Of a stretch of 64,000 nucleotides of DNA, positions 22,819 to 50,056 are shown piece by piece. Under the pieces are notes generated by a model that saw nothing but the letters and a program-made list of their open reading frames with translations, searched no databases and was not told where the DNA came from. Both the position numbers and the translations under genes were made by a program. Within the stretch, counting starts at the first letter, position 1. Each line of letters begins with the position of its first letter. Source of the DNA: an uncultured bacterium (GTDB taxonomy: Bacteria > Eisenbacteria > RBG-16-71-46 > CAZHEV01); contig CAZHEV010000013.1 in NCBI GenBank assembly GCA_964531335.1, positions 22,732 to 86,731 of the forward strand. The letters are read 5' to 3'.

Positions 22819-22840
22819 CTTTGGAAAGGACAAACCACCA

Positions 22841-24401: not shown

Positions 24402-24419
24402 GACGGAGTGGAATTACCG

Positions 24420-25118: not shown

Positions 25119-25188
25119 GGTCGGGCCTCACGGAAACGGCATGTCGTTGCGCGACCGGGCACGGCGGCCTGCGATTCAGGAGAAGAAC

Positions 25189-25602: not shown

Positions 25603-25682
25603 GCGTGAGTTGCGGCATGTGGCCCGACGGCAATCTCTAAGGTGTGGGAGAAGACGAACCGCCGGCGGAGGGACGGAAGGTA

Positions 25683-28446: not shown

Positions 28447-29124
28447 TTACTTCCGGCGATTTTCCGGGCTGTTGGCACGGCATTCAGGCAGGACACCCAA
28501 ACACCCCGCCAGTGCCAGTAGGTATTTGTCTCGGGTGCTCTCATGGATGCTGCTCGTGAACGCGCCGAGCCAGGGGAACAGATAACTGTCTTCAAAGTGA
28601 CATTGACGAAGTATCAGGCGTTCCCCCTCCGCCGTGTCGCCGCCGTCCAGCGTCCCACAGGCCCTTTCCAGCAAATGACCGCTGAACTCCAACTCGACGG
28701 CAAGGTGGTCCGGAAGCTCGCACTGTTGCTCTGAGATGACCAGCCCTTCTTCCTCATACAGACGCTCGACCTGCCGGGTCGTGTCGCCGTAGATGTGCCG
28801 GCCCGGCTCCAGGTAGACTGAACCATAAGGAGGCGACGGGACGGACGCCGGGCCGATGAACTGCCGGGTGTAGGCTACCTGCAGGTCCTCCCGTGATCGG
28901 GATTTCAACTCGGATTGCAAGGCCTCAATTGCGACGGTGTCCGGGACTCCAAGCGATTGAACCGCCCGGCGGAGTCTGGGAACAAGCTCCGCGCTCAGGA
29001 AATCCTCAGGCTCAGGAAGGCAACACAACGCGGATAGAATCAGCCTGATTTCGGCATGCTCGCGCAAGTTCGCGCTCAGCGCCGCCATGTTTCGGGATCG
29101 TTCACAAAAAGGTTCATTGATCAT
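28447..29124 (-). CDS. TorD/DmsD-family redox-enzyme maturation chaperone (ArrD-like)
   Basis: YTRQFIGP...PPYGSVYLE...ELPDHLAVELEF motifs typical of TorD-like chaperones; start could be 29124 or 29088. Confidence 0.75.
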   Translation of the reverse strand: MINEPFCERSRNMAALSANLREHAEIRLILSALCCLPEPEDFLSAELVPRLRRAVQSLGVPDTVAIEALQSELKSRSREDLQVAYTRQFIGPASVPSPPYGSVYLEPGRHIYGDTTRQVERLYEEEGLVISEQQCELPDHLAVELEFSGHLLERACGTLDGGDTAEGERLILRQCHFEDSYLFPWLGAFTSSIHESTRDKYLLALAGCLGVLPECRANSPENRRK

Positions 29125-29151
29125 AGGGACTTACAATCCGGTTCACCACGA

Positions 29152-29916
29152 TCACGCGTTCTTTCGACCGGAGAACTCGCCTACGTAGTAAACATTCGGC
29201 TCCGTGCCCGCGTCTTCCCGCAGCCTGAATGCCTTCTGACGCTTCATAGCCTCCCGGACTTCCGCTTTTGGGTCATCGAGATCACCGAAGATCCTCGCGC
29301 CCGCCGGGCAAGCCTCGACACATCGCGGAGCCTCTCTCAGCTCGACACGATGGGCGCACAGGATACATTTTTCAACGACGTCCGCGCGCCGCACGTTGTC
29401 ATAGTCGGGATGACGGTACAGCGTTCTGTGCGGCGGTGTTTGCCGCGATAAGCCGGCTACCTCCGCACCCGACGAAGTACCGCCGGGGATGACTTCCCTC
29501 TTGCCGGAGTACAGGGCATGAGCCACGCCGTTTTCATTGAAGCTGATCACGCTGTACTGTCTACCCTCGTCATCGACATCAAGAGCGCTGTAGGGACACG
29601 CTTCCTGGCACGACTGGCAGCCGATACAGCGCTCGTCGTTGTGCATGGTTATCCCGTCCGGCGTCTTGAACATTGCCTTTGGCGTGACCGGACACGCCTC
29701 GACACAAGCCGCCCTGCTGCAGTGGTTGCAGAGAACCGGCATGGTCGTGTACTTGACATCGGGAAATGTGCCCTCTTGAGTGATCAGGAAATCAGCCCAA
29801 TTGAATGTCTGCCCGTTCGCACGATCGCCCGTGTTGTTCTCCGTCTTACAGGCGATGGCGCACGCCCCGCAGCCGACGCATTTGTGGAGATCTATAACCA
29901 TTCCGTACTGGGCCAT
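29152..29916 (-). CDS. Molybdoenzyme iron-sulfur subunit with four 4Fe-4S clusters (ArrB/PsrB/DmsB-like)
   Basis: ATG 29916 with RBS GGAGG 9 nt upstream; four Cys clusters (CVGCGACAIAC, CNHCSRAACVEACP, CIGCQSCQEACP, CILCAH...CVEACP). Confidence 0.85.
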   Translation of the reverse strand: MAQYGMVIDLHKCVGCGACAIACKTENNTGDRANGQTFNWADFLITQEGTFPDVKYTTMPVLCNHCSRAACVEACPVTPKAMFKTPDGITMHNDERCIGCQSCQEACPYSALDVDDEGRQYSVISFNENGVAHALYSGKREVIPGGTSSGAEVAGLSRQTPPHRTLYRHPDYDNVRRADVVEKCILCAHRVELREAPRCVEACPAGARIFGDLDDPKAEVREAMKRQKAFRLREDAGTEPNVYYVGEFSGRKNA

Positions 29917-29944
29917 GGCGTCCATCCTCCAATTGAAGCGCGTG

Positions 29945-32470
29945 TCAGATCTTCTCGATCTTTACGCCGGTAAAGCCTCCATTGCGAGCCGTGCTCCCGG
30001 AAAGGCGGTCATAATCGGCCGGCATTATTTCGTTGTTGTTCACTCCCCTGGGGATCTTGCCGAACTCAGCCGAGGCAAAGCGGCCGTAAGCCCAATGCCC
30101 CTGCCCGTAGCACTTGGTCGCCACTCCAGGGGGTATCCCTTCCCAGGGTTTCGCTTTTATCTCAAAACTGCCGGTCACCGAGGATACGAGAACCCTGTCT
30201 CCATGGTTGATTCCCAGCCGAGCCGCATCTTTGGGGTTCATCTTCAGCACGTCGTCCCAGCTCTCATCGCCGGGATCGACCTTCTTCATCTCGTGGTACC
30301 AGGTTGTGTTTTGGCTGCGCCCTTCTCTGTTGAGCCGTGATTTGTGATCCAGGAATACGAACGGGTACTCTTCGACATCGCCCCATCGGAAGGGTGGTTC
30401 GTAGTGCGGAACAAAGGCCTGCTCACCACGCGCCGTGTACTTACAGCTCTCAAGGATGTCATCCACGCTCGTCGCATGCTTGTCGGCGTGGGCCTGGAGA
30501 GCCTTCTTGAGCGTTTCGCTGTAGAACTCGAATCTGTGCGTCTCGGTCTTGAACTTTCCCCAACGCTTCTTGTAAGGATATGGGTCTGAATTCCACATCC
30601 CGCGCTTCCTGAGCTCGTCCCAGCCTGCGATGCCGTCGCCATCGTGACCCGCGGCGTCCATCCAAAGCGGGGACAAGTAATACTTGGTTGAATAGAGCGC
30701 GAACTCCCGCTCGTTTGACGGCGACTTGCCGGTGTCCACGTCTTTGAACTCCTGCTTGAAGTAGTCCAGGAGATTCGGGAATCCCCTCGCCGCCAGACGT
30801 TCGGCGATCAGATACGGTATCTCCGTCTCGTCGATCTTGACGTTCCAGAGGGGATCAACAACGGGCTGAAGCAATGAGGCGTATGCGAAACGGTTTTGTT
30901 TGCCTTTGACCCATCCCCATTTTTCGAAAGTAGTCATTGCACACGGCAAGACGATGTCCGCAAACATCGTCATTTCCGAGGCGTTGGTCGTTAGATGCAC
31001 AAAGAACGGGATCTTCCGCATCGCCCTCTCCCAACGCCGGGCACCGGTACACGAAAAGGGAAAATTGCACATATAACCGATCGCAAGCTTGATATCATAT
31101 GGATCTTCTTCAAGGATCCCGGTTGCGGCATTGTTGGTCACGACACCGCCGCCCGGCTTTCCTTCCTTGAGAGAAGGGAATTCCTTATAGCCGCGCTGGT
31201 CGATCTTCTTGTGCTTCAGCTTTGCGAGGTCGTCCAGGTAAGCGTCGATTTTGGGCATCTTGAGAACCGGGACATGGGCCTTGTCCATCGTACCGCCCTC
31301 GTTGTCAACGGAGCCCAGCAGACCATTCAGCGCGTGAATGGCCATTGCTGCATAGCTTCCGCGGACCTGCATGCAGGAACCCGGGCCGAGCCAGACGGCG
31401 ACATTCGGCGAAGCGTGCCCGAGACCACGCGCGACACGTCTGATCTGATCGGCGGACACTCCGGTGACTCCCTCGGCCCACTTCGCGGACCGGTCCTTCA
31501 ACTCGATGTTCCACCATGCCGCGAGCCCGTGGGTGTGATTCTCCGTAAATAGAACCTCATCTACGGTCTCTCCCGGCTTGAAACGGTTCTTTTCATCGTT
31601 GAAATCGCCGACGAACTCCCGGTTCCAAGCGCCGTTTACAAGAATCTCATGCGCCAGAGCCACTGCCAGCGCCCCATCCTCGCCGGGCTTTACCGGAAGC
31701 CATTCTTGAGCTTTGATGGCTGAGGTGTGAAGTCTCGGATCGACGACCGCCAGTGTTCCGCGGTCAACCACCCCGTGAAGTCTCTTTATGGCAGCAGGCA
31801 CCATTCTGTTCGAAGCGACGGGGTCGCACCCCCAGACAAGAAGGTACGCGCACTTGTCGAGATCGTAGTCGCGGTAGTCCCAGAGTCCCTCCGTAAAATA
31901 AGGGCCGAATTTCTCGGCTTCGGCGCAGATTGCACTGTGTGAGATGTTATTCGGCGATCCGATAATCTTGGTCATCGCTTCGTAGATCACGTCACGCATG
32001 TAAGTGTATCTTCCCCGCAGCAGCAGGTACTTATGCGCCTCACCCGACCGCCGTAGTGAGAGAATCCGCTCCGCTATGGTATCCAGCGCCTCGTCCCAAG
32101 TGATGGCAACGAACCGCGGGTCCTCACCGCGACCCTTATTCGGGTTCGTGCGCTTCAAGGGGGCCTTTACGCGATCAGGGTCATAGACTTGCTGCAGTCC
32201 AATGTGGCCACGAGGGCAGCAGACACCATCGTTCTGCTTCGAGTGCCGGTTTCCCTGTACCTTGACGGCCCGGCCATTCTGAACGAAGACCTCGAGCGGG
32301 CACCAAGTCGTGCACCCCTGGCACGTAGTGGGTATCCACTCACCAGCCGCTTCTTCCACACGAAAACTCTTTTTCACCGAAGCCAGCGCGTTCAGGCGGA
32401 AACCACCCGTCGTCAACAACGCGCCGGCGGCGGCGGCGGACTTGAGGAAGTCACGCCTCCGAATCCGCAT
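29945..32470 (-). CDS. Molybdopterin oxidoreductase catalytic subunit, DMSO-reductase family, Tat-exported (ArrA/ArxA/PsrA-like)
   Basis: ATG 32470 with RBS GGAGG; twin-arginine signal MRIRRRDFLKSAAAAGA; N-terminal Fe-S motif CQGCTTWC...C (C-x2-C-x3-C-x26-C). Substrate not assignable from sequence alone. Confidence 0.85.
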   Translation of the reverse strand: MRIRRRDFLKSAAAAGALLTTGGFRLNALASVKKSFRVEEAAGEWIPTTCQGCTTWCPLEVFVQNGRAVKVQGNRHSKQNDGVCCPRGHIGLQQVYDPDRVKAPLKRTNPNKGRGEDPRFVAITWDEALDTIAERILSLRRSGEAHKYLLLRGRYTYMRDVIYEAMTKIIGSPNNISHSAICAEAEKFGPYFTEGLWDYRDYDLDKCAYLLVWGCDPVASNRMVPAAIKRLHGVVDRGTLAVVDPRLHTSAIKAQEWLPVKPGEDGALAVALAHEILVNGAWNREFVGDFNDEKNRFKPGETVDEVLFTENHTHGLAAWWNIELKDRSAKWAEGVTGVSADQIRRVARGLGHASPNVAVWLGPGSCMQVRGSYAAMAIHALNGLLGSVDNEGGTMDKAHVPVLKMPKIDAYLDDLAKLKHKKIDQRGYKEFPSLKEGKPGGGVVTNNAATGILEEDPYDIKLAIGYMCNFPFSCTGARRWERAMRKIPFFVHLTTNASEMTMFADIVLPCAMTTFEKWGWVKGKQNRFAYASLLQPVVDPLWNVKIDETEIPYLIAERLAARGFPNLLDYFKQEFKDVDTGKSPSNEREFALYSTKYYLSPLWMDAAGHDGDGIAGWDELRKRGMWNSDPYPYKKRWGKFKTETHRFEFYSETLKKALQAHADKHATSVDDILESCKYTARGEQAFVPHYEPPFRWGDVEEYPFVFLDHKSRLNREGRSQNTTWYHEMKKVDPGDESWDDVLKMNPKDAARLGINHGDRVLVSSVTGSFEIKAKPWEGIPPGVATKCYGQGHWAYGRFASAEFGKIPRGVNNNEIMPADYDRLSGSTARNGGFTGVKIEKI

Positions 32471-32513
32471 AGCAACCTCCAAGGGGGCATGTCATTGTGC
32501 TTGGCATCGAAGC

Positions 32514-33023
32514 TCAACGCTCATCGCCGACCTGGCTGTCTCGATGCTCCGACCATCCGCAACATTCCCCGTCTGTCTCACGGCAGTCCGGGCTCCCTGG
32601 TTCAAGCGCCGGGGGCAACGATTCCGGATCTCCCAGGTCGGCAATGGTGATCTCGCGCGCGGCCGAATAGAAAGCGTCTCTGGCTCGGCCCCAGGCGCGA
32701 TCAAACTTGCACGGATTCTGCTCCGTACAGTCACCCAATCCGAGTCGGCATCCAGTCTCTCCATGCAAATGCTCAATGCCTTCTATCACTTCCAGTAGAG
32801 AGATCTTGTGCGGAGGCCGGGCCAGCCCGTAGCCTCCGGTGAAGCCCCGCTTTGAAGTGACAAATCCCAGGTCTCTGAGGGAATGAAGGATCTTGGCCAA
32901 ATACGGGCGTGGCACGTTAGCGCAAGCCGCGAGTTCCTCCCGTTTCCGCAAAGGCCCTATACAGAACGCCAGGCAACGTAGAGCCCTGATGGCATAGACC
33001 GAGGAGTTCGATAGTCCGAACAT
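32514..33023 (-). CDS. Rrf2-family (IscR/NsrR-like) Fe-S transcriptional regulator
   Basis: ATG 33023 with RBS AAAGGAG; MFGLSNSSVYAIRALRCLA N-terminus; three-Cys cluster CRLGLGDCTEQNPC. Confidence 0.8.
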   Translation of the reverse strand: MFGLSNSSVYAIRALRCLAFCIGPLRKREELAACANVPRPYLAKILHSLRDLGFVTSKRGFTGGYGLARPPHKISLLEVIEGIEHLHGETGCRLGLGDCTEQNPCKFDRAWGRARDAFYSAAREITIADLGDPESLPPALEPGSPDCRETDGECCGWSEHRDSQVGDER

Positions 33024-33061
33024 TTTTGACTCCTTTCCGTGTGAACCTAGCATTTATGACC

Positions 33062-33401: not shown

Positions 33402-33450
33402 TTGACCGGGATGCAGGGCCTCTGCTATAATTCGATATGTGTGCACATAT
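33402..33450 (+). promoter_or_regulatory. Promoter TTGACC-18-TATAAT followed by a perfect inverted repeat ATATGTG-TG-CACATAT (candidate ArsR operator)
   Basis: Direct reading: TTGACC 33402-33407, TATAAT 33426-33431, palindrome 33435-33450, RBS GGAG 33451-33454, ATG 33463. Confidence 0.45.
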
Positions 33451-33462
33451 GGAGACTGACTT

Positions 33463-33909
33463 ATGCGCGATTTCATGACCATAGCGAAGGCACTCTCGGA
33501 TCAGAACCGGATCAGGATGCTCATGGCGCTCTCCGGGGGTGAGCTCTGCGTGTGCCAGATCACGGAGCTCGTGGGCCGGTCTCCTTCTACCGTATCCAAG
33601 CATATGTCCATTCTGAGGCAGGCGGGTCTTGTTGAAGGAAGAAAGGTCGGCCGTTGGGTCTATTACAAACACCCGGATCGCGACGTTCCCGACCTTGTGC
33701 GCGGCACTCTGAAGTGGGTGCGCAGCTCCCTGGCGGAAGATCCGCATATACTCGCGGATGTGAAACGCCTTGAGGAGGTCTTGAAGCTCGATCCCGAGGT
33801 TTTGTGCCGAGGGCAGAGCATGACGTGTCAATCCTCTCCCGGACGATCATCGGCGAAGGCCGGGACCCGAAAGCGCGGGGTAGATCGCGCGCTCAAGCGC
33901 GCGGGATGA
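33463..33909 (+). CDS. arsR: ArsR/SmtB-family metalloregulator with CVC motif
   Basis: LMALSGGELCVCQITELVGRSPSTVSKHMSILRQAGLV; Cys-Val-Cys as in As(III)-responsive ArsR. Confidence 0.8.
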   Translation: MRDFMTIAKALSDQNRIRMLMALSGGELCVCQITELVGRSPSTVSKHMSILRQAGLVEGRKVGRWVYYKHPDRDVPDLVRGTLKWVRSSLAEDPHILADVKRLEEVLKLDPEVLCRGQSMTCQSSPGRSSAKAGTRKRGVDRALKRAG

Positions 33910-34131: not shown

Positions 34132-34995
34132 ATGGGAAAGAAACTGTTGTTGGCAGTATCGATTTGCGCTGTAGCCGCGTTCGTCGTGTACGCGGCGGTG
34201 AACATCCGGGGGATGGAACCGGGATCGGCCGGCGCAGCGGCTGATTTGCCACAATCTGCGGGCGTTTCCCGTGAAGGGCCCGCCGCCGCTGCCGGCGAGC
34301 GGCTGGAAGGATCCGGCGACGGCATGGCCGCGCTGAGAGACGCCGCCGAGGAGGATAAGTATGCTTTCGCCTTCTTCTATAAGGACGAGGATGAAGGCAC
34401 GCAGGAGATGAGGGAGTTGTTCGAGACGGCGATGGAGAAGGTCACAGATCGTGCCGAGCACGTGATCCTCAACGCCGCCGACCCTTCGGAGAAGGACATG
34501 ATCGAGAAGTACGGAATTGACCGATCACCCATGCCGTTGGTACTGGCGTTCGCTCCCAACGGTGCACTGACCCGGGGGCTTCCCAGATCCTTCACCGAGG
34601 AGCAGATAATGAGCTGCTTCGTGAGCCCGTGCATGGAAATGTGCCTCAAGGGCGTGCAGGACAGCAGGCTTGTCGCGGTGTGCGTGCAAAACGGCTCAAC
34701 GCGGTTCAACGAGGAGGCGATGGCTGGAGTGCGGGCATTCATGACGGATCCGCGGTTTGCCCGGATGACCGATCTTGTCATGTTGGACCCCAGCGATCCG
34801 GATGAAGCCACGACCTGTAAGAGGTTCAGCGTCGATCCCGACACCGACCAGGCGATAACCCTTCTGCTCGCGCCTCCGGGCAACATCATCGGAAGATTCA
34901 AGGGGGCGACCGACAAGGACGACATGGTCTCCATTCTGACGAGAGCCACGTCCGGCGGATGCGGTCCGGGCAGCGGCTCTGGATGTTGCCCCTAG
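34132..34995 (+). CDS. Hypothetical exported protein with Cys-rich C-terminal tail
   Basis: ATG 34132 with RBS GGAGGAGAGGAG; N-terminal signal/anchor MGKKLLLAVSICAVAAFVVYAAV; C-terminus GGCGPGSGSGCCP; internal CMEMC. Confidence 0.5.
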   Translation: MGKKLLLAVSICAVAAFVVYAAVNIRGMEPGSAGAAADLPQSAGVSREGPAAAAGERLEGSGDGMAALRDAAEEDKYAFAFFYKDEDEGTQEMRELFETAMEKVTDRAEHVILNAADPSEKDMIEKYGIDRSPMPLVLAFAPNGALTRGLPRSFTEEQIMSCFVSPCMEMCLKGVQDSRLVAVCVQNGSTRFNEEAMAGVRAFMTDPRFARMTDLVMLDPSDPDEATTCKRFSVDPDTDQAITLLLAPPGNIIGRFKGATDKDDMVSILTRATSGGCGPGSGSGCCP

Positions 34996-35013: not shown

Positions 35014-36234
35014 GTGAAACTAAGAAAAATCGTCTGGCAGGAGATGTTTCAGCGGAAGTCCCAGCTTGCCACAAGCCTGATCGCCGTGCTTCTCGGCATC
35101 GCCGTGGTCGTCTCCATCAAGAACATCACCTTCTATTCCGAGAAGGCCGTGGCCAGGGAGCTCGACGCCCTGGGCACCAACATTCTCGTCCTGCCCAAGT
35201 CCGCGTCGATACAGGACTACTACAGCGCGGACATGCAGGATGACGAGTTCCCCGAGGAGTACATAACGCGCCTGGCGACCTCCGACCTCCAGGGACTGGA
35301 CAATCTGTCGCCGAAACTGTCCCTGCCGGTGGAGCTCAACGGCGCCGCTTTCACGCTGACGGGGATACTTCCCAAGAATGAGTTCAGCGCAAAGGCCATG
35401 TGGGCGGGCGCGGGCATCTTCTCGCGGCCGGAGGGCTGCGGTCAGATAGCCGGAATGCCGTCGGCCGCGGACCCGCCGGCCAAGGAGACCTTGGTCCGAA
35501 AGAGGGTCATCGACACCCTCGGTGACAATGAAGCCCTCGTGGGCGCCGACGTGGCGGCCCTGTTGGGGGTCGAGGAAGCCGACGAGCTGGCGATTCTGGG
35601 CAGGACATTCTCGGTAACCGCGGTCCTGCCGCAGACCGGCACCGTGGACGATTCCCGTATCTTCGCCCACCTGCACACTGTCCAGAAGCTATCCGGAAAG
35701 GGCCCCGTGGTCAACGCCATCGAGATCGTGGGCTGCTGCAACGAGATATCCGGGGGGCTGGTGCAGAAGATCAACAGGCTTCTTCCCGAAGCGAGAGTCG
35801 TCACGATCACCCAGGTCGTGGACACGCAGATCAAGACGAATCAGATGATGTCCCGGCTATCGATGGTCTTCCTGGCCATCATTGTTGTCGTCGGGGGAGC
35901 GAGCATAGCCAACTACATGTATGCTAACGTGTATGAAAGGCGCCGTGAGATAGGGACACTCATGGCACTGGGCGCGGGGTCCGGGATGATCTTGAAGCTT
36001 TTCCTTTTGAAGGCCCTGGCGATCGGGCTCGCCGGCGGAATCGGCGGTTATGCGCTGGGCACGCTGCTGGCGGTGACCTTGGGGCCGCAGTTCGCGCGCG
36101 TCCCCGTGCTGCCCATGCCGGTTCTTATCGCCTGGGCGCTCGGCATCTCCCTGATTTTGGCCCTCGCGGCGAGCTATCTCCCGGCCAGGCGCGCCGCGCG
36201 CCTTGACCCGTGCGAGACGCTCCAGGAGATGTGA
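35014..36234 (+). CDS. ABC transporter permease, FtsX/MacB-like
   Basis: 406 aa; N-terminal TM, large periplasmic loop, C-terminal TM bundle. Confidence 0.8.
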   Translation: MKLRKIVWQEMFQRKSQLATSLIAVLLGIAVVVSIKNITFYSEKAVARELDALGTNILVLPKSASIQDYYSADMQDDEFPEEYITRLATSDLQGLDNLSPKLSLPVELNGAAFTLTGILPKNEFSAKAMWAGAGIFSRPEGCGQIAGMPSAADPPAKETLVRKRVIDTLGDNEALVGADVAALLGVEEADELAILGRTFSVTAVLPQTGTVDDSRIFAHLHTVQKLSGKGPVVNAIEIVGCCNEISGGLVQKINRLLPEARVVTITQVVDTQIKTNQMMSRLSMVFLAIIVVVGGASIANYMYANVYERRREIGTLMALGAGSGMILKLFLLKALAIGLAGGIGGYALGTLLAVTLGPQFARVPVLPMPVLIAWALGISLILALAASYLPARRAARLDPCETLQEM

Positions 36235-36905
36235 TCTTGATAAAGTTGGAAGGCGTAAGCAAGAGGTACAACCACCGCGGAAGAGCCGTCACGGCGCTTG
36301 ACGAGGCGACTTTCGAGATCTCCAGAGGGGACTTCGTTTCGGTCGTCGGACCCAGCGGAAGCGGCAAGAGCACGTTTCTTCTGATACTGGGCGGCATGCT
36401 TTCCCCGTCGAAAGGGCGGGTTCTATTGGATGGGAGCTCGATTTATGACCTCGCCCAGGACGCACGCGCCAAGCTAAGGAAGACGAGAATCGGCTTCGTG
36501 TTTCAGACCTTCAATCTAGTGCCGTACCTGTCGGCGATGGAAAACGTCCAGATTCCCCTGTTCCTCGCGGGAATGGACGAGCCCGGCCAGAAGGACAGGG
36601 CCGCGGCATTGTTGGGACGAGTGGGCCTCTCGGAGAGGCTTGACCACAAGCCGTCCGAGATGAGCGTTGGCCAGCAGCAGCGCGTGGCTCTCGCAAGGGT
36701 TCTCGCCAACGACCCCGAGGTTGTGCTCGCGGACGAGCCGACGGGCAACCTCGATCCCGAGACCGGGGAGCACGTCCTCGATTTTCTCTGCGAGATCAAC
36801 GCGGAGGGGAAGACGGTCGTCATGGTGACTCATGACCCGCGCGCCGCCGGGAAAGCGAGAACCGGCCTGAGATTGAGCCAAGGCGCGCTGGTGTCCTTGA
36901 GTTAG
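36231..36905 (+). CDS. ABC transporter ATP-binding protein (MacB/LolD-like)
   Basis: GTG 36231 overlapping the upstream stop (GTGA); Walker A GPSGSGKST, signature-like MSVGQQQRVALAR, Walker B VVLADEPT. Confidence 0.85.
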   Translation: MILIKLEGVSKRYNHRGRAVTALDEATFEISRGDFVSVVGPSGSGKSTFLLILGGMLSPSKGRVLLDGSSIYDLAQDARAKLRKTRIGFVFQTFNLVPYLSAMENVQIPLFLAGMDEPGQKDRAAALLGRVGLSERLDHKPSEMSVGQQQRVALARVLANDPEVVLADEPTGNLDPETGEHVLDFLCEINAEGKTVVMVTHDPRAAGKARTGLRLSQGALVSLS

Positions 36906-36926: not shown

Positions 36927-38126
36927 ATGTCAGGGCGCAAGAAGAAGGCCGGGTCACAAGCGGGACGTGAGAGGACGAGCCCTCAGAGGGAGAAGGTGAA
37001 GCGCCGCCGAATGACGAAGTTGGCCTTTACACTCTCGACCGTCATCGTCGTAGCGGCGGCGGCATGGATCGCGTTGGGCTCCCGCGGCGAGAAGTCATGG
37101 AGCCCGTCCTCGGCCTCGGAGCTGTTGCAGTCGGCGGCCACGGCGCCGGATGATGCGGAAACAGGCGCTCGGGCCGGCGGAGCCCCGAAGATTGTCTTCT
37201 CGGAGACATCGTACGATTTCGGCACCTTAACCCAGGGGGCTGACGTATCGCACGCTTTCGTCGTGCGCAACGCCGGAGACGCGCCGTTGAAGCTGCTTGA
37301 CGTGGGGGGATCGTGAGGATGCACGGTTGCCGTCCTCACGGAGACGGACATTCCCCCGGGCGGGGAAGGAGCAATCGAGGTCACGTTCAAAACAGGCAAC
37401 AGGAAGGGAAAGCAGAAAAAGAACATCAAGATAGTGTGCAATGATCCTGCGAGCCCCAAGAACGTGCTGGTTGTCACGGCATTCATCCAGGTTGAGTTCG
37501 ATTTCGCGTCCGGCAGCCTCTATTTCGGCAGCGTGCCGAGAAACGAGACGGTGACCAAGAGCGCTTTCATACAGATCCTGGATCCTGACAGGACGGAAAT
37601 CACGGACATAACCACGTCATCCCCCTACGTTGAAGCGAAACGCCTGAAGGATCCCCCGGCGGGACACGAGGGCGAAGTTGAAATCCGGGTGACCATGTCA
37701 CCGGGACTGCCCCCGGGCAGAGTCAATGAGACGGTCACCGTTCGGTCGAACTTGAGCTCCAAGCCCGAGGCCAGGTTGCGTGTGAGCGGGGTAATACTCG
37801 GAGACGTCGAGGTTGCTCCGGACGCGCTTAGATTCTTTTACAGCGAGTCCGAGGGGGCGGAGAATCAACTACCCCCTCAGAAGCTCGAGGTTGTCAATAG
37901 GTCAACCGAGGCGCCACTGAGAATCTTGGAAGTCAAAGATCCTCAAGACAGGCTGGAACTGGAGCTTGAGGCGATCGAAGACGGTCGGAGATACGAGGTA
38001 ACGGCGACATTGAAGAAAGAGGCCCTCGGCGCTCAGGGTGTCGCTACGGGCTTTATTCTCATTACTACCGATAATCCCGAACAGCGGGAAATCACCGTTC
38101 GATATAGTATCATTAGACGGAAATAG
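36927..38126 (+). CDS. DUF1573-repeat protein interrupted by one in-frame TGA (37314-37316) at a conserved Cys position
   Basis: The 36927-37316 and 37434-38126 track ORFs are in the same frame; read-through gives ...KLLDVGGS*GCTVAVLTETDIPPGGEGAIEVTF..., matching the family SCGCT core as I recall it, with TGA where TGC/TGT (Cys) is expected. Confidence 0.6.
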
Positions 38127-38495: not shown

Positions 38496-38936
38496 ATGCC
38501 ACTGAGAATACTGTTTCTGTGCACCGGGAATTCGTGCCGCAGCCAGATGGCCGAAGGTTGGACGCGACATCTCAAAGGCGACGTGGTGGAGCCGTACTCG
38601 GCCGGGATAGAACCTCGCGGAATCGATCCCCGCGCCGTGACGGTAATGGCGGAGGTCGGCGTGGATATTTCGAGGCAGAGCTCCAAGCACGTTGACGAAT
38701 TCAAAGGCACAGCCTTCGATTTCGTCGTGACCGTCTGCGACCATGCGAGCGAACACTGCCCGATCTTTCCTGGCGATACCCAAGTGGTGCACGTGGGTTT
38801 CGAGGATCCTCCCAAGCTGGCGGAAAACGCCGAGACCGAAGAGGAGGCGCTCGGCCACTACAGGCGCGTCAGAGACGAGATACGGGCATTTGTGCAGACG
38901 CTGCCGGCTGCCTTGGAAGGAGACGGGAGACAATGA
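38496..38936 (+). CDS. arsC: Arsenate reductase, thioredoxin-coupled LMW-PTPase type
   Basis: CX5R motif LFLCTGNSCRSQMAEG and downstream Cys pair VCDHASEHCP. Confidence 0.85.
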   Translation: MPLRILFLCTGNSCRSQMAEGWTRHLKGDVVEPYSAGIEPRGIDPRAVTVMAEVGVDISRQSSKHVDEFKGTAFDFVVTVCDHASEHCPIFPGDTQVVHVGFEDPPKLAENAETEEEALGHYRRVRDEIRAFVQTLPAALEGDGRQ

Positions 38937-39838
38937 AAGACACCGATATAGACCGCGGGAGTGACGGGAGCAGGGACGCCGATATAGACCGCGGGAGTGA
39001 CGGGAGTGAGCGGAAGGACGCGCGCGGCATCGTGCGCGAAGAATACGGCAAGATCGCCCGGCAGGGCGGCTCCTGCTGCGGGCCGTCACCTTGCTGTGGA
39101 GGCGCTTCCGCTGATTCGGTCGCCGCGAAAGTGGGCTACAGCCAAGAAGAGCTCGCCGGGCTGCCGCATGGAGCTAACATGGGGCTCTCCTGCGGGAACC
39201 CGGTCGCGATCGCGTCGCTGCGGCCGGGGGAAGTCGTGCTCGACCTGGGCGCGGGGGGCGGCTTCGACGTGTTCCTTGCAGCCCGCAAGGTGGGCCCTTC
39301 GGGACGCGCCATCGGCGTGGACATGACGCCGGACATGGTGGACAAGGCCCGCCGCAACGCGGAGTCCTTCAGAAGTGCGACGGGGCTCGACAACGTCGAG
39401 TTCCGTCTGGGCGAAATAGAGCACCTGCCCGTGGCGGACGCGTGCATAGACGTGGTAATCTCCAACTGCGTCATCAACCTCTCGCCGGACAAGCCTCAGG
39501 TGTGGGCGGAGATCGCGCGCGTCCTCAAGCCCGGTGGACGGGTATCCGTCTCCGACCTGGCGCTCCTGCGGCCGCTGCCGGACGCGGTGCGTGAGTCGGC
39601 GCAGGCCTTGGTCGGCTGCATGGCGGGGGCCGTGCCGGTGGATGAGACGCGCGAGATGACGCGGGAGGCCGGACTTACAGAGGCCGTCTTTGAAACCAAT
39701 TCCGACTACGTGGATCAGATGGCCGAGTGGTCCGACGCAACCTACCGCGAGATCGCCGCGGGGCTGCCGCCGGGGGCCCGGCCGAGCGACTTCGTGACCA
39801 GCATGAACGTCACGGCGTCCAAGCCCGTTACGGAATAG
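38933..39838 (+). CDS. arsM: Arsenite S-adenosylmethionine methyltransferase
   Basis: ATG overlaps arsC stop (ATGA); SAM-MTase motif [16 protein letters not shown], conserved Cys ([19 protein letters not shown]). Confidence 0.85.
38943..39006. repeat. 36-bp tandem direct repeat x2 at the 5-prime end of arsM (28/28 identical core ccgatatagaccgcgggagtgacgggag)
   Basis: Direct reading; encodes [11 protein letters not shown] twice. Confidence 0.9.
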
Positions 39839-39848: not shown

Positions 39849-41039
39849 ATGGCGACTGAAGCGTGCATCAAGAAGGAGGCCAAGGGCCTCAGCGCGTTTG
39901 AGAGATACCTGACGGCCTGGGTGGCGCTCTGCATCGTGGCGGGGATCGCGCTCGGCAAGGTAGCGCCGGGCGTGGCTACTTTTCTGGACGGGTTGGCGAT
40001 CTACGTCGACGAGGCCCCGGTCGTCTCCATTCCCATCGCCGTCTGCCTGTTCTTCATGATGTACCCCATCATGGTGAAGATCGACTTCGCGGAGGTCCTA
40101 AAGGCCGGCAAGAACGCGAAGCCCGTGGGCCTTACGCTCTTCGTAAACTGGGCGATCAAGCCCTTCACCATGTACGCCATCTCGGTCTTGTTCCTCGGCG
40201 TGCTGTTCCGGGGGCTGATAGGTGCGGACGCCGTGGATCTGGTAAAAATGCCGCTCGGCCTCGACCTGCCCGTGGGGGCGGAGCACGGGGTGGGCAAGGT
40301 CGTGATCGCAGACGGGGTCAGGATGCTCGAGGTGCCGCTGTGGCGCAGCTACCTCGCCGGCTGCATCCTGCTCGGCATCGCGCCCTGCACGGCGATGGTG
40401 CTCGTCTGGGGGTTCCTGGCCAAGGGGAACGACGGCCATACCCTCGTCATGGTGGCGATCAACTCGCTGACAATGCTGTTTCTCTACGGCCCGCTTGGAG
40501 GTTTTCTGCTCGGCGTCGGAAGGCTGCCCGTGCCGTGGCAGGCGCTCCTTCTTTCCATCGGCGTCTATGTCGCGCTGCCGCTCGTGGCCGGATATGCGTC
40601 CAGGAGACTCATCGTTCGCGCCAGGGGAGAGGAGTGGTTCAAGGAGAGATTCCTGCACGTGATGACGCCGGTCACCATCACGGCGCTCCTTGTGACCCTG
40701 GTCTTGCTCTTCTCCTTCAAGGGCGAGACGATCATGTCCAACCCTTTGACGATCCTGTGGATCGCCATCCCGCTTTTCATCCAGACCAACCTGATATTCT
40801 GGATCACCTACGGACTGGCCAGGGGGCTGCGTCTTGAGTACCGTGACGCCGCGCCTTCGGCGATGATCGGAGCCTCGAATCACTTCGAGGTCGCCATCGC
40901 GACGGCGACCATGCTCTTCGGGCTTTCCTCGGGGGCGGCGCTTGCAACCGTGGTCGGGGTGCTCATCGAGGTGCCCGTGATGCTGATGCTGGTCCGGATC
41001 TGCCTTCGCACCAGCGGATGGTTCCGTGCGCCCTCGTGA
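39849..41039 (+). CDS. acr3: Arsenite efflux permease, ACR3 family
   Basis: RBS TAGGAG; polytopic membrane protein; N-terminal [23 protein letters not shown] typical of Acr3. Confidence 0.85.
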
Positions 41040-43241: not shown

Positions 43242-44387
43242 TCATGGGCGCCCTGGGCCGGCGAGGCTCTTCCACGCCTTGCTCAACAGTACCACCGCTT
43301 GGCGGACATCGTCGCTCGTCGTCGCCCGACCGAGTGAGAGGCGAACGGAGCCGAGCGCGTCCTCGGCGGTGAGGCCCATGGCAAGTAGCACCGCCGAGGG
43401 AGCCTCCCCGCCCTCGTGGCACGCCGAGCCCGTCGACGCGGCGAGCCCCGGGGCGCCGCCGAGCACGGCGCTGCCGCGCACGCCGGGAAACGTCACGTTC
43501 AGAGTGTTGGGCAGCCCCAGCGCCTCGTGGCCGTTGAGCGCGATACCCGGGATTTTTGCCCGCAATAGCAACAATAGCTCGTCCCGCAGAGCCCGGGCCC
43601 GCGCCGATTCCTTCGCCAGAGACCTGATCGCAATCTCGCATGCCGCGCCGAGCCCGACTATCGATGCCACGTTCTCGGTGCCCGGCCGCAGGCCTCGCTC
43701 GTGACCGGCGCCGCGCAGCACCGGCTCCACGGTCACCCCATCGCGGACGTACAGCGCCCCGACGCCCTTCGGGGCGTAGAGCTTGTGTCCTGCGATGGAC
43801 AGGAGGTCCACGCCGAGTTCATCCACTTGTACGTCGATCTTGCCCACTGACTGGGCCGCGTCGGTGTGCAGCAGGGATCCGGCGTCGTGAACCGCTCGCC
43901 TCACCTCGGCGATCGGCTGGAGCGTGCCGGTCTCGTTGTTGGCGTGCATCAGCGTAACGAGAACGGTCTCCTCGGTCAGTGCCCGGCGCACATCCTCCTC
44001 TCGGACACGTCCGGTCTCGTCGACCCCCAGCCAGGTGACTGCCAAGCCGCTTCGTTCGAGCAGCCTGCAGGGGTTAGCAGTCGCCGGATGCTCGACGACC
44101 GAAGTGACGATGTGCTTCCTGTCCGGGCGGGAGGCCGCCGCACCCCGGATCGCGAGGTTGTTCGCCTCGGTGCCGCCCGACGTGAACACGATCTCGGCGG
44201 GCGCGGCGCCGATGAGCGAGGCGACGCGCGCCCGCGCGGCCTCGACCGCTTCGTGCGCCCGTCGTCCGTACGCGTGACCGCTCGACGGGTTGCCGAAGTG
44301 CTCCCGCAGGTACGGCAGCATCTCGTCCACGACCTCGGGCAGGAGCGGAGTGGACGCGTTGTGATCGAGGTAGATGGGATCGCTCAT
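43242..44387 (-). CDS. Cysteine desulfurase (NifS/IscS family, PLP-dependent)
   Basis: ATG 44387 with RBS AGAGGGGGA; MSDPIYLDHNASTPLLPEVV...TSGGTEANN..., PLP-Lys context SIAGHKLYAPKG, active-site Cys region STGSACH. Confidence 0.85.
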   Translation of the reverse strand: MSDPIYLDHNASTPLLPEVVDEMLPYLREHFGNPSSGHAYGRRAHEAVEAARARVASLIGAAPAEIVFTSGGTEANNLAIRGAAASRPDRKHIVTSVVEHPATANPCRLLERSGLAVTWLGVDETGRVREEDVRRALTEETVLVTLMHANNETGTLQPIAEVRRAVHDAGSLLHTDAAQSVGKIDVQVDELGVDLLSIAGHKLYAPKGVGALYVRDGVTVEPVLRGAGHERGLRPGTENVASIVGLGAACEIAIRSLAKESARARALRDELLLLLRAKIPGIALNGHEALGLPNTLNVTFPGVRGSAVLGGAPGLAASTGSACHEGGEAPSAVLLAMGLTAEDALGSVRLSLGRATTSDDVRQAVVLLSKAWKSLAGPGRP

Positions 44388-44553
44388 GACTCCCCCTCTT
44401 GCGATGTTCTCTTGTATGCAGCGGCCGCGACGAACGCGGCGCCGGGCGTGATGGTGGCAGCCGGCATGTGATCGAGCGGCGCGGAACGGCGCCGCCCGTC
44501 GCGAGCCCGCGTGTCGCGCCGGCACGCGTACGTCCTCGGGAGCATCGCCTGCA

Positions 44554-45778: not shown

Positions 45779-46132
45779 TCAAAACACCAGGATTCGGTCG
45801 GCCCACAGGGTCCACTCGGTAAGCTGGTCGAGGGATCCGCGTTTCGTTCCCTCGGCGAGATCGTCGAGCGCGAGGCCGCGGGCGTCCATACAATTGGCGC
45901 AGACACCGATCTCGCCCTTCTTGTTGCTGACCGCGCGCAGCATGCGCTCGAGGTTGTAATACCCGTTGGGGGTCTGCTGCCCGGCCCTGGCGCAACTTGC
46001 CGCGTCGCCCATGAGGAAGACGCGGACCTCTTCTCCCTCGCGCTTGACGAGGGAGCCCGCCAGGCGCAGGCCGTTGTAGCTCCGTTCAGTGCCGTAGGGC
46101 GCGTCGTTCAGAATAAAGAGGGTTTTGCTCAT
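45779..46132 (-). CDS. DsrE/DsrF-like sulfur-relay family protein
   Basis: 117 aa; MSKTLFILNDAPYGTERSYNGLRLAGSL...FLMGDAASCA pattern. Confidence 0.7.
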   Translation of the reverse strand: MSKTLFILNDAPYGTERSYNGLRLAGSLVKREGEEVRVFLMGDAASCARAGQQTPNGYYNLERMLRAVSNKKGEIGVCANCMDARGLALDDLAEGTKRGSLDQLTEWTLWADRILVF

Positions 46133-46812: not shown

Positions 46813-46852
46813 GGTAGCCCTTTCTTCTTGTGCTACTCAAGCGAATAAGCAA

Positions 46853-46881
46853 GTAATAGAATAATCTGGCGTCCGTGTCAA
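46853..46881 (-). promoter_or_regulatory. Minus-strand sigma70-type promoter TTGACA-17-TATTAC upstream of the ArsR-rhodanese operon
   Basis: Direct reading of the reverse complement: TTGACA (46881-46876), 17-nt spacer, TATTAC (46858-46853); about 40 nt upstream of ATG 46812. Confidence 0.35.
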
Positions 46882-46963
46882 GACGAAAGATGGTTGTTGC
46901 TGGGAACGCTTGTTCCTCATCTTTTTTCGCCGCACCCGCGCGAACACCTTCGGTCTCAGGGCG

Positions 46964-50044: not shown

Positions 50045-50056
50045 GGGATCTCCTCT

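What the first reader, a model, noticed from the sequence alone, without database searches (positions are those of the whole stretch)
37314..37316. In-frame TGA exactly where a conserved Cys is expected in a DUF1573 gene: selenocysteine candidate, pseudogene or sequencing error
Two track ORFs (36927-37316 and 37434-38126) share one frame and are separated only by TGA. Read-through gives DVGGS-TGA-GCTVAV, which matches the DUF1573 core S-C-G-C-T as I recall it, with TGA in the place of the first Cys codon. A single C-to-A change would explain it, but Cys/Sec replacement at redox-type Cys positions is the classic selenoprotein signature. A short hairpin (CCGTC-ctcacgga-GACGG, 37330-37347) begins 14 nt downstream; it is weak as a SECIS candidate.
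Basis: partly seen in the sequence, partly recalled or inferred. Interest (0 to 1): 0.55.

Follow-up and report, generated by a model that had tools for sequence, protein, structure and literature searches.

The report
Selenocysteine codon in arsenic-operon DUF1573 gene
The in-frame TGA is a genuine, conserved selenocysteine codon in a member of a known but functionally uncharacterised selenoprotein family (OS_HP2/DUF1573), and here the gene sits inside an arsenic-resistance operon, which hints at what the family does.

Summary
TGA at 37314-37316 is the only stop in frame 36927-38126. Read-through gives a 399-aa protein whose DUF1573 domain (Pfam E=8e-34) spans the TGA. It is not an error or a pseudogene. 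The same column is TGA in 91 of 96 distinct related loci from independent assemblies (about 30-100% protein identity, locus GC 41-71%). It is TGC in the rest and Cys in all 10 distant full-length homologues. TGA is otherwise a normal stop here (16 of 32 domain-supported genes). NCBIfam NF041425 "OS_HP2 family (seleno)protein" scores above its cutoff, and the family (UGC motif) has been listed since 2007. The recoding is therefore known. What I add: two hairpins follow the UGA. A second (37351-37367, UUCCCC-CGGGY-GGGGAA) is fixed at synonymous sites only in Sec forms. The protein is probably membrane-anchored and periplasmic, with three Ig-like domains and U-G-C in a beta-turn. It lies in an arsR-to-acr3 operon with a MacB-type ABC transporter whose partners carry conserved Cys-Cys sites. 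I infer selenol/thiol handling of arsenite. This is untested. No Sec machinery lies in the window.

The parts
36927..38126 (+). Selenoprotein gene (OS_HP2 / DUF1573 family). It encodes 399 aa with U at residue 130. An alternative start is ATG 37011 (MTKLAF...).
   Evidence: There is a single in-frame TGA. Pfam DUF1573 matches at E=8e-34 across it. NCBIfam NF041425 scores 107.1 bits against a cutoff of 100.
37017..37079 (+). Signal-anchor or signal-peptide hydrophobic segment (about residues 31-51, LAFTLSTVIVVAAAAWIAL). It follows a basic N-terminus with 12 K+R in the first 30 residues.
   Evidence: This is the most hydrophobic 19-mer (mean Kyte-Doolittle 2.29) and the charge count is as stated. 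The N-in/C-out topology is inferred from the positive-inside rule.
37191..37466 (+). DUF1573 (ASH/HYDIN-type Ig-like) domain, residues 89-180, containing the U-G-C motif.
   Evidence: The AF2 model of Cys homologue P0014 puts S-C-G-C in a 4-residue turn between two beta strands.
37314..37316 (+). UGA selenocysteine codon (residue 130).
   Evidence: The column is TGA in 91 of 96 distinct homologous loci, TGC in the remainder that could be aligned, and Cys in 10 of 10 distant full-length homologues.
37320..37322 (+). TGC, the partner Cys of the U-G-C motif (residue 132).
   Evidence: G-C follows the TGA in all Sec loci listed. The first two bases of this codon (alignment columns 7-8) are invariant and the third varies C/T.
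37330..37347 (+). Hairpin H1 (CCGUC / 8-nt loop / GACGG).
   Evidence: 90.6% of cells are paired in 72 distinct sequences. 3 of 5 pairs show changes on both sides (pair 21-30: CG 37, GC 18, UA 4, UG 3).
37351..37367 (+). Hairpin H2 (UUCCCC / CGGGC / GGGGAA), encoded by I-P-P-G-G-E. This is the candidate SelB-binding apical hairpin of the SECIS.
   Evidence: 100% of cells are paired. The stem is invariant apart from 4 U.G cells. Loop bases G45-G47 are invariant. RNAalifold and the single-sequence centroid both predict it. Synonymous positions are fixed in Sec forms but not in Cys forms. The probability of these codons under the window's own codon usage is about 0.0015.
33402..33431 (+). Promoter-like site (TTGACC-18-TATAAT, 11 of 12 matches, with extended TG) ahead of arsR.
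   Evidence: No terminator-like site between genes was reported from there to acr3.
33465..33909 (+). arsR-family repressor gene (ELCVCQI motif).
   Evidence: Sequence. tblastn with the HTH_5 protein of L001 gives 86% identity.
34132..34995 (+). Conserved signal-anchored Cys-rich protein with no known family and a C-terminal GGCGPGSGSGCCP tail. It is the first gene of the ABC module.
   Evidence: A GCCP...SC(G/A)P-type tail is present in most of the 17 distinct homologues, and the rest have related Cys-rich tails.
35014..36234 (+). FtsX/MacB-type ABC permease with an invariant Cys241-Cys242 pair between TM1 and the C-terminal FtsX domain. Placing this pair in the periplasmic domain is inferred.
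   Evidence: Pfam FtsX and NCBIfam MacB/LolCE-like. The CC pair is present in 24 of 24 distinct homologues.
36210..36905 (+). ABC ATPase (LolD/MacB-like). It ends 21 nt before the selenoprotein gene.
38496..38936 (+). arsC (thioredoxin-type LMW-PTP arsenate reductase).
   Evidence: Pfam LMWPc. TIGR02691 scores 142 bits, which is the best hit but below its cutoff of 174.
38933..39838 (+). arsM arsenite methyltransferase.
   Evidence: NF008823 scores 317 bits against a cutoff of 263.
39849..41039 (+). acr3 arsenite efflux permease.
   Evidence: TIGR00832 scores 381 bits against a cutoff of 283.

Best explanation
The TGA at 37314-37316 is a selenocysteine codon in one 399-aa gene (36927-38126) of the known OS_HP2/DUF1573 selenoprotein family. 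SHOWN: the TGA replaces the first Cys of a conserved C-G-C motif. It is conserved as TGA across about 90 diverged homologues. TGA is otherwise an ordinary stop codon in this window. Two adjacent hairpins follow the UGA: H1 (37330-37347), which covaries, and H2 (37351-37367), whose sequence is frozen at synonymous sites only in Sec-type genes. INFERRED: SelB bound to Sec-tRNA(Sec) recognises this bipartite SECIS, most likely the H2 minihelix with its invariant GGG loop, and inserts Sec at the UGA while the ribosome is just upstream. The product is exported or anchored by its N-terminal hydrophobic segment. It would display three Ig-like beta-sandwich domains in the periplasm, with Sec130-Gly-Cys132 in a tight turn at the edge of the first domain. 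INFERRED from conserved synteny: the gene is co-transcribed in an ArsR-controlled operon (arsR, Cys-rich anchored protein, MacB-type permease with a conserved Cys-Cys pair, ATPase, this gene, arsC, arsM, acr3). The selenol/thiol pair would then act as a high-affinity ligand for arsenite or a related thiophilic metalloid. It would capture the metalloid or hand it over within a periplasmic thiol/selenol relay served by the ABC transporter. My confidence is about 0.9 for the Sec recoding, about 0.6 for a role in arsenic or metalloid handling of some kind, and about 0.35 for direct As(III) ligation by U-G-C.
For: Recoding. There is one in-frame stop and the DUF1573 domain spans it. NF041425 scores above its cutoff. 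All 13 closest database homologues (37-100% identity) are C-terminal fragments. P0004-P0007 and P0010-P0013 start 8 codons after the TGA column. Read-through translations of L001, L003, L004 and L005 show x-TGA-G-C-T. The column is TGA in 91 of 96 distinct loci. All 10 distant full-length homologues have Cys there. 16 of 32 domain-supported genes in the window end in TGA.
SECIS. Pair counts and controls are: 95.7% paired against 47-68% when slid, and 0 of 500 shuffles reach the covariation score. RNAalifold predicts H2. Synonymous positions are frozen in H2 across loci of 41-71% GC, against the window's own codon bias. Divergent Sec subclades keep a two-hairpin layout with different sequences, whereas 3 of 4 Cys forms do not.
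Protein. The AF2 model of Cys homologue P0014 has pLDDT 83.8, three beta-sandwich domains, and C-G-C in the turn at residues 129-132. The fold matches are ASH/HYDIN-type Ig tandems and PDB 2qsv.
Arsenic link. 22 of 38 distinct main-clade loci with at least 3 kb on both sides have a core ars gene within 6 kb. 27 of 60 have the ABC ATPase directly upstream. L005/L006 lie next to arsD-arsA. A promoter-like site precedes arsR and no intergenic terminator follows it. Cys-rich tails are conserved in the partner protein and a Cys-Cys pair is invariant in the permease. The ABC module is itself ars-linked elsewhere (L117/L118).
Against: No tRNA-Sec, selA, selB or selD was found in the 64 kb, so Sec competence of this organism is not shown. 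No Rfam family matches the element. The thermodynamic z-score of the region is unremarkable. The H2 loop starts 40 nt after the UGA, which is further than in classical bSECIS models as I recall them. H2 shows no compensatory changes, only invariance. The peptide P-P-G-G is inherently self-complementary at the DNA level, so some hairpin potential exists even in Cys forms (L088). The locus sets were retrieved with the peptide DIPPGGEG, which may enrich for Sec forms. On function: other Sec-type subclades have no ars neighbours (0 of 5). The ABC module occurs without the DUF1573 gene (L117-L119). No binding or phenotype data exist. The structural model is of a 32%-identical Cys homologue, not of this protein.
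Confidence: 0.8

Rival explanations
1. The U-G-C motif is a redox-active selenenylsulfide centre (a CXC-type oxidoreductase or isomerase), not a metalloid ligand. It would keep periplasmic thiols of the ars/ABC module reduced, or reduce a substrate, with electrons supplied through a DsbD/CcdA-type membrane protein.
For: Most bacterial selenoproteins are redox proteins (PMC9312934). A DsbD_TM gene and two thioredoxin-like genes lie in the same island (24408-25118, 22775-23071, about 24000-24401), and L001 has the same set. C-G-C sits in a tight turn where an i/i+2 bond is sterically possible. From memory, CXC peptides have PDI-like redox potentials. Sec-type homologues also occur outside ars contexts.
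Against: The domain is an Ig-like sandwich with no thioredoxin fold and no nucleotide or cofactor site. The co-conserved partners carry vicinal Cys-Cys sites. As I recall, such sites are typical of As(III) ligands such as ArsD rather than of redox relays. The operon is ArsR-controlled.
Confidence: 0.3
2. The TGA is a true stop. Either two separate products are made (a 129-aa N-terminal protein and a C-terminal protein restarted downstream) or the gene is functionally truncated.
For: Gene callers split it this way in every database entry. No Sec machinery is visible in the window.
Against: The stop falls inside a beta-sandwich domain. The 39 codons between the TGA and the first in-frame start (GTG 37434) are conserved at the protein level in more than 90 loci. 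Restart codons differ in position and identity between homologues. Frozen synonymous sites downstream indicate an RNA element, as expected for recoding.
Confidence: 0.04
3. The UGA is read through, but not as selenocysteine. Possibilities are a variant genetic code (UGA as Trp or Gly) or near-cognate or Cys insertion.
For: Sec insertion has not been demonstrated for any member of this family. The reviews class the family as a computational prediction (PMC13188914).
Against: TGA terminates 16 of 32 domain-supported genes in the window at normal lengths. The aligned residue in homologues is Cys, the usual Sec counterpart, not Trp or Gly. A conserved structured element follows the UGA.
Confidence: 0.04
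4. Sequencing or assembly error (TGC or TGT misread as TGA), or a recent pseudogene.
For: A single C-to-A change would produce it. The window is a single sequence without read support.
Against: The same TGA is found in 91 of 96 distinct loci from unrelated samples and assemblers, down to about 30% protein identity. No other frame disruption is present.
Confidence: 0.01

Closest known systems
OS_HP2 / DUF1573 selenoprotein family (NCBIfam NF041425). It was predicted by Zhang & Gladyshev 2007 (PMC1976440), re-found in GOS 2008 (PMC2398784), and listed with a UGC motif in PMC9312934 and PMC13188914.
   Same: The domain (PF07610) is the same, as is the U-G-C motif at the first Cys of C-G-C. The HMM score is above the curated cutoff.
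   Different: Nothing differs at the level of family membership. In the library I could search, the literature gives no function, no SECIS drawing for this family (it is not among the Figure 5 panels of PMC1976440) and no genomic context. This member sits in an ars operon with a MacB-type ABC module.
Cys-type DUF1573 proteins (for example P0014-P0022 here). PDB 2qsv, an uncharacterised Porphyromonas gingivalis protein, is the nearest solved relative.
   Same: The fold is Ig-like (ASH/HYDIN-type). The full-length Cys homologues share the S/T-C-G-C-T motif and a tandem-domain architecture.
   Different: They have Cys instead of Sec. The IPPGGEG peptide is encoded with free codon choice and lacks the frozen H2 sequence. 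In the 2qsv alignment the stretch aligned to the query's S-C-G-C shows no matched residues, so 2qsv does not appear to share the motif.
Bacterial SECIS elements (E. coli fdhF type; the bSECISearch model).
   Same: There is a stem-loop directly downstream of the UGA within the coding sequence. The apical loop of H2 contains conserved G. H1 starts 13 nt after the UGA, which is close to the roughly 11-nt spacing of the E. coli minimal element (spacing from memory).
   Different: There are two adjacent short hairpins rather than one long stem. The invariant hairpin (H2) lies 34 nt after the UGA and its loop 40 nt after it. No Rfam family matches. SelB binding is untested.
ArsD arsenic metallochaperone and other vicinal-thiol As(III) binders (properties from memory).
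   Same: It is encoded in ars operons. Its proposed working principle is soft-ligand (S/Se) chelation of As(III) and hand-over to a transporter. L005/L006 place the gene directly beside arsD-arsA.
   Different: The fold is unrelated. The location is extracytoplasmic rather than cytoplasmic. It has a selenol. The associated transporter is a MacB-type ABC system, not ArsAB. Binding is not shown.
Selenoproteins associated with metal or metalloid resistance and ABC transporters (SaoB, SaoC, SaoP and others; PMC13188914).
   Same: Sec is proposed there as a metal-binding ligand in transporter-linked, resistance-associated proteins.
   Different: The protein families and the ABC type differ: those are substrate-binding-protein systems, this is FtsX/MacB. 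No homology was detected.

Membership tests
OS_HP2 / DUF1573 selenoprotein family (NF041425) | Score at or above the curated NCBIfam cutoff | tested here: met
   107.1 bits against a cutoff of 100, residues 92-187
OS_HP2 / DUF1573 selenoprotein family (NF041425) | DUF1573 (PF07610) domain | tested here: met
   E=8e-34, 116 bits against a cutoff of 26.1, residues 89-180
OS_HP2 / DUF1573 selenoprotein family (NF041425) | U-G-C (UxC) motif, with U at the first Cys of the C-G-C motif of Cys homologues | tested here: met
   GGS-TGA-GGA-TGC. The alignment has Cys in 10 of 10 full-length homologues. The motif is listed in PMC9312934 and PMC2398784.
Bacterial selenoprotein gene (Sec-decoded UGA) | In-frame UGA conserved among diverged orthologues | tested here: met
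   91 of 96 distinct loci. The closest database homologues are all split at this point.
Bacterial selenoprotein gene (Sec-decoded UGA) | UGA is otherwise a stop codon in the same genome | tested here: met
   16 of 32 domain-supported genes end in TGA
Bacterial selenoprotein gene (Sec-decoded UGA) | SECIS-like stem-loop immediately downstream of the UGA | tested here: met
   H1 covaries. H2 is invariant at synonymous sites in Sec forms only.
Bacterial selenoprotein gene (Sec-decoded UGA) | selA, selB, selC (tRNA-Sec) and selD present in the genome | not testable with these tools
   None were found in the 64-kb window. The rest of the genome is not available.
Bacterial selenoprotein gene (Sec-decoded UGA) | Selenium demonstrated in the protein | not testable with these tools
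   This needs 75Se labelling or mass spectrometry. The reviews class the family as a prediction (PMC13188914).
Classical bacterial SECIS (fdhF type / bSECISearch model) | Apical loop with conserved G at a set distance from the UGA (about 16-37 nt, from memory) | tested here: inconclusive
   The H2 loop CGGGY has invariant G, but it starts 40 nt after the UGA. The H1 loop starts 18 nt after the UGA but has no conserved G in its first two positions.
Classical bacterial SECIS (fdhF type / bSECISearch model) | Match to a curated RNA family | tested here: not met
   No Rfam hit at gathering score, and only unrelated weak hits at E up to 10
ars operon component | Conserved co-location and co-orientation with arsR, arsC, arsM, acr3, arsP, arsD or arsA | tested here: met
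   22 of 38 main-clade loci with adequate flanks.
ars operon component | Arsenic-dependent expression, As(III) binding or a resistance phenotype | not testable with these tools
   Experimental work is required.
Accessory subunit of a MacB/FtsX-type ABC transporter | Obligate co-occurrence with the permease and ATPase | tested here: not met
   The ABC ATPase lies directly upstream in 27 of 60 loci only. The module exists without the DUF1573 gene in L117, L118 and L119.

The most novel reading that the evidence does not exclude
The Sec-DUF1573 protein is the selenol-bearing member of an undescribed, ArsR-controlled periplasmic arsenite (or antimonite) handling system. The system would comprise a MacB-type ABC transporter with an invariant Cys-Cys pair in its presumed periplasmic domain, a signal-anchored protein with a Cys-rich C-terminal tail, and the U-G-C selenoprotein. 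Together they would form a thiol/selenol relay that captures the metalloid outside the cytoplasm. This would be a new arsenic-resistance mechanism, the first functional assignment for the OS_HP2 family, and a case of biological As-Se chemistry used for detoxification.
Probability: 0.3. Interest if true: 0.65.

Novelty: new member of a known kind. Interest (0 to 1): 0.35.

Why it matters
The recoding itself is routine. An up-to-date annotation pipeline with NF041425 should name this gene, and its main practical use is as a reminder that ordinary gene callers split it into two ORFs, as every database entry found here does. The added value is in three points. First, this is a large, cross-phylum set of Sec-type DUF1573 genes showing which RNA features are actually constrained. 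Second, the protein motif IPPGGE and the SECIS hairpin are the same nucleotides. Third, there is a reproducible link between one subfamily and ars operons plus a Cys-Cys-bearing MacB-type ABC module. That link turns a family of unknown function into a testable hypothesis about periplasmic arsenic handling by selenium.

Tried and rejected
- Rfam, at gathering score on the whole window and at E up to 10 on 37200-37500: no SECIS or other relevant family.
- ARAGORN on the window: no tRNA at all, so no tRNA-Sec.
- Pfam/NCBIfam scans of about 40 window ORFs: no SelA, SelB or SelD. The class-V aminotransferase at 43242-44525 is NifS/IscS-like, not SelA.
- A scan of the window for other ORF pairs joined by a single in-frame TGA was too noisy at 62% GC to reveal further selenoprotein candidates. 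The thioredoxin-like genes near DsbD carry ordinary CxxC motifs.
I modelled the Cys homologue P0014 instead.
- Foldseek against the PDB returned only generic Ig/ASH tandems, so it gave no functional lead.
- Single-sequence folding energies are not better than shuffles. The support for the RNA element is comparative, not thermodynamic.
- I considered an alternative stem that buries the UGA (GUGAGGA 37312-37318 with UCCUCAC 37334-37340, the MFE). It is specific to the window and its closest relatives and is not kept in the alignment.
- Looking up the 100%-identical permease P0026, to identify the source genome, found no record.
- Literature searches found nothing linking DUF1573/OS_HP2 or FtsX-type ABC systems to arsenic.
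Full report
OBSERVATION. The sequence at 37300-37330 reads gac gtg ggg gga tcg TGA gga tgc acg gtt gcc gtc. Translating 36927-38126 in one frame gives 399 codons with a single internal stop at codon 130...APLKLLDVGGS*GCTVAVLTETDIPPGGEGAIEVTF.... With the stop read as Cys, Pfam DUF1573 (PF07610) matches residues 89-180 at E=8e-34, so the stop lies in the middle of one domain. The hairpin CCGTC/GACGG is at 37330-37334/37343-37347 as stated.

IS THE TGA REAL AND CONSERVED? A protein search with the read-through sequence returned 24 relatives. The 13 closest (37-100% identity) are all C-terminal fragments of 220-266 aa. Eight of them (P0004-P0007 and P0010-P0013) start at the equivalent of residue 138, "M/L-T-E-T-D-I-P-P-G-G-E-G", 8 codons after the TGA column. 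Only distant relatives (32% identity or less) are full length, and those carry S/T-C-G-C-T. I fetched DNA for four of the fragments. L001 (78% identity), L004 (74%), L003 (55%, unrelated neighbourhood) and L005 (37%) each have one in-frame TGA at exactly this column, followed by G-C-T.

Two collection scans with an alignment of these proteins gave 110 more loci. They come from metagenomes and from MAGs labelled Zixibacteria, Ignavibacteria, Gemmatimonadota, Glassbacteria, Myxococcota and Deltaproteobacteria. A script aligned the domain to each locus. The column is TGA in 91 of 96 distinct loci and TGC in four. The fifth non-TGA locus (L111) aligned poorly. In an alignment with 10 distant full-length homologues, every one has Cys at this column.

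TGA is not generally reassigned here, because 16 of 32 domain-supported genes in the window end in TGA. A sequencing error, a pseudogene and a variant genetic code are therefore excluded for practical purposes. One caveat applies. The scans used the peptide DIPPGGEG as a seed, which may favour Sec-type genes. The first protein search did not use that seed and gives the same picture.

ALREADY KNOWN. NCBIfam NF041425, "OS_HP2 family (seleno)protein", matches at 107.1 bits against a cutoff of 100. [quoted passage not shown] The family was first predicted as OS_HP2 in the Olavius symbiont metagenome (PMC1976440). It appears as "OS_HP2, pfam07610, UxC" in the GOS survey (PMC2398784). No function is given there, and its SECIS is not among the figure panels of the 2007 paper.

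THE RNA ELEMENT. I aligned 72 distinct Sec-type sequences from the TGA to +63, without gaps. Two adjacent hairpins stand out.

90.6% of cells are paired, and three of its five pairs change on both sides. Pair 21-30 is CG in 37 sequences, GC in 18, UA in 4 and UG in 3. Column 21 is the synonymous third base of a Val codon, and it tracks the third base of codon 10.
- H2 (columns 38-43 with 49-54; window 37351-37367) is UUCCCC-CGGGY-GGGGAA. It is paired in 100% of cells. The only variation is four U.G wobble cells, and loop bases G45-G47 are invariant.

For the two hairpins together, no shuffle out of 500 reaches the observed covariation score. Sliding the partners drops pairing from 95.7% to 47-68%. 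RNAalifold and the single-sequence centroid both recover H2.

H2 is encoded by I-P-P-G-G-E. Its third codon positions (ATT, CCC, CCG, GGG, GAA) are fixed, while the third positions just outside the stem (columns 36 and 57) and in the loop (column 48) vary freely. This holds across loci of 41-71% GC. It also runs against the window's own codon preferences: ATT is used for 14% of Ile and GAA for 26% of Glu, and the joint probability of these codons is about 0.0015. The five distinct Cys-type sequences encode the same peptide with other codons, such as ATC CCG CCT GGC GGC GAG.

Divergent Sec subclades with other sequences or spacing (L103, L104, L110, L113) still fold into two adjacent hairpins after the UGA. 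Three of four Cys forms do not. I conclude that the SECIS is bipartite and that H2 is the sequence-specific part, and so the likely SelB-binding part.

Several weaknesses remain. No Rfam family matches. Folding energies are not exceptional. The H2 loop begins 40 nt after the UGA, further than in the classical models as I remember them. CCN-CCN-GGN-GGN is inherently self-complementary, so the ancestral Cys gene was pre-adapted to form this hairpin.

THE PROTEIN. The N-terminus has 12 Lys/Arg in 30 residues. It is followed by the most hydrophobic 19-mer of the protein (residues 32-50). I infer an N-in signal anchor, or a cleavable signal peptide if translation starts at Met29, which would place the rest of the protein outside the cytoplasm.

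The tools would not model the read-through protein itself, so I modelled the Cys homologue P0014 with a 24-row alignment. The model has mean pLDDT 83.8, with values above 90 through the domains. It shows three beta-sandwich domains, and S129-C130-G131-C132 form the four-residue turn between two strands of the first domain. Structure matches are ASH/HYDIN-type Ig tandems and the uncharacterised Porphyromonas protein 2qsv. The fold is a scaffold, not an enzyme fold. The only conserved reactive feature is the U-G-C turn.

GENOMIC CONTEXT. The window is a metalloid island. On the minus strand are an ArrA-like molybdoenzyme (NF041714, 1121 bits, full length but below the strict cutoff of 1600), its Fe-S subunit and a TorD/NarJ-type chaperone. 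On the plus strand there is a terminator-like site and then a near-consensus promoter-like site at 33402-33431. The genes that follow are:

- arsR (33465-33909; ELCVCQI motif);
- a signal-anchored protein with no known family and a GGCGPGSGSGCCP C-terminus (about 34132-34995);
- a MacB/FtsX-type permease (35014-36234);
- its ATPase (36210-36905);
- the selenoprotein gene, starting 21 nt later;
- arsC, arsM and acr3.

No terminator-like site lies between these genes.

tblastn with these proteins against all fetched loci shows the same order in many MAGs: arsR, partner protein, permease, ATPase, Sec-DUF1573, then arsC, arsM, acr3 or arsP. Among 81 distinct main-clade Sec loci, 27 of the 60 with enough upstream sequence have the ATPase directly upstream. 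22 of the 38 with at least 3 kb on both sides have a core ars gene within 6 kb. L005/L006 place the gene beside arsD-arsA.

The partner protein keeps a Cys-rich C-terminal tail, of GCCP...SC(G/A)P type in most of its 17 distinct homologues. The permease keeps an invariant Cys241-Cys242 pair in 24 of 24 homologues. This pair lies between TM1 and the FtsX domain, which I take to be the periplasmic domain.

An independent search seeded with the permease found more than 3000 relatives. Two sampled contexts show the three-gene ABC module again in an ars cluster (L117/L118: arsA, arsM/arsD, acr3, arsR, module, arsC). A third shows it beside a CusCBA-type efflux system (L119). All three lack a DUF1573 gene. 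The ABC module is therefore metal- or metalloid-linked in its own right, and the selenoprotein is an accessory present in a subset.

Other Sec-type subclades (Myxococcota-like loci and L103-L116) show no ars genes, and some sit beside type II/IV secretion ATPases. The arsenic link thus applies to this subfamily, not to all of OS_HP2.

MECHANISM. The following are shown: a conserved UGA at a Cys position, a constrained RNA element, and conserved ars/ABC synteny. An extracytoplasmic location and the Ig-scaffold architecture are inferred from the sequence and from the model of a homologue. The rest is also inferred. SelB would read the H1+H2 element and insert Sec. The exported protein would present a selenol/thiol pair that binds arsenite, or a related soft metalloid, and would exchange it with the Cys-Cys sites of the permease and the partner protein.

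The main functional rival is that U-G-C is a redox-active selenenylsulfide centre fed by the nearby DsbD/thioredoxin genes. The evidence here cannot separate the two. I found no paper connecting DUF1573/OS_HP2 or FtsX-type ABC systems with arsenic in the searchable library.

VERDICT. This is a real selenocysteine codon in a new member of a known, computationally defined selenoprotein family. The recoding is ordinary. The SECIS anatomy and the arsenic-operon context are useful additions, and they give a testable functional hypothesis. Sec competence of this organism remains unverified, because the window holds no Sec machinery.

Noticed in passing
window 28447-32482 (- strand): There is a candidate arsenate respiratory reductase cluster. 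It has an 845-aa molybdopterin oxidoreductase whose best hit is NCBIfam ArrA (NF041714, 1121 bits over the full length, below the cutoff of 1600). It also has a 4Fe-4S subunit (29152-29925) and a TorD/NarJ-type chaperone (28447-29124). An Rrf2 regulator lies at 32514-33053.
   Followed up: partly
window 34132-34995 (ORF called from 33964): This is a signal-anchored protein with no Pfam or NCBIfam match. It has internal Cys motifs and a C-terminal GGCGPGSGSGCCP tail. Most of its 17 distinct homologues, upstream of the same ABC permease in other loci, keep a GCCP...SC(G/A)P-type tail. It looks like an uncharacterised thiol-rich periplasmic metal or metalloid binder.
   Followed up: partly
window 35014-36234: The MacB/FtsX-type permease has an invariant vicinal Cys241-Cys242 pair between TM1 and the FtsX domain (24 of 24 distinct homologues). 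A further Cys near residue 142-144 is present in 21 of 24.
   Followed up: partly
L117 5461-9755, L118 1781-6075, L119 6148-8908: The three-gene module (unknown anchored protein, FtsX permease, ABC ATPase) has more than 3000 database relatives. It occurs without any DUF1573 gene in an ars cluster (arsA, arsM/arsD, acr3, arsR, arsC) and next to a CusCBA-type RND system. Several of the relatives listed are labelled Planctomycetota. This may be an undescribed metal- or metalloid-linked ABC system in its own right.
   Followed up: partly
window 22020-26945: There is a redox and sulfur-transport cluster syntenic with L001. It contains an ArsR-like HTH (22020-22391), a small thioredoxin-like protein with GCPKC (22775-23071), a thioredoxin with CIPC (within 23619-24401), DsbD_TM (24408-25118), a DGC-domain protein (25141-25602), a YeeE/YedE/TsuA-like transporter (25644-26945) and a porin (26952-28262). 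22381-22818 may be a remnant of the arsP gene seen at this position in L001.
   Followed up: partly
window 46129-52971 (- strand): An ArsR-HTH/rhodanese fusion protein (46129-46812) lies next to an RND efflux system: ACR_tran of 1026 aa, a CusB-like HlyD_D23 adaptor and an outer-membrane factor. This is another metal-resistance module in the same island.
   Followed up: no
window 17568-21542 (- strand): A 1324-aa beta-helix protein has a C-terminal Por_Secre_tail (type IX secretion sorting) domain. This suggests an FCB-group-like organism, although the closest permease relatives are labelled Planctomycetota. The taxonomy of the window was not resolved.
   Followed up: no
window 37312-37340: In this sequence and its closest relatives, GUGAGGA (which includes the UGA) is perfectly complementary to UCCUCAC at 37334-37340. 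The single-sequence MFE therefore buries the UGA in a stem that competes with H1. This pairing is not conserved in the 72-sequence alignment.
   Followed up: partly
L030 4195-5994, L033 8032-9855, L043 7357-8439: In Myxococcota/Deltaproteobacteria-type loci and one other, the Sec-type DUF1573 gene lies next to a type II/IV secretion ATPase (T2SSE, two of them with an MshEN domain) rather than ars genes. This suggests a different role for those subclades.
   Followed up: no
window 33907-33909: arsR ends in a TGA that is in the same frame as the downstream Cys-rich protein ORF, so the mechanical ORF caller starts that ORF far upstream (33964). This looks like an ordinary stop. Homologues start at the equivalent of Met57.
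   Followed up: no
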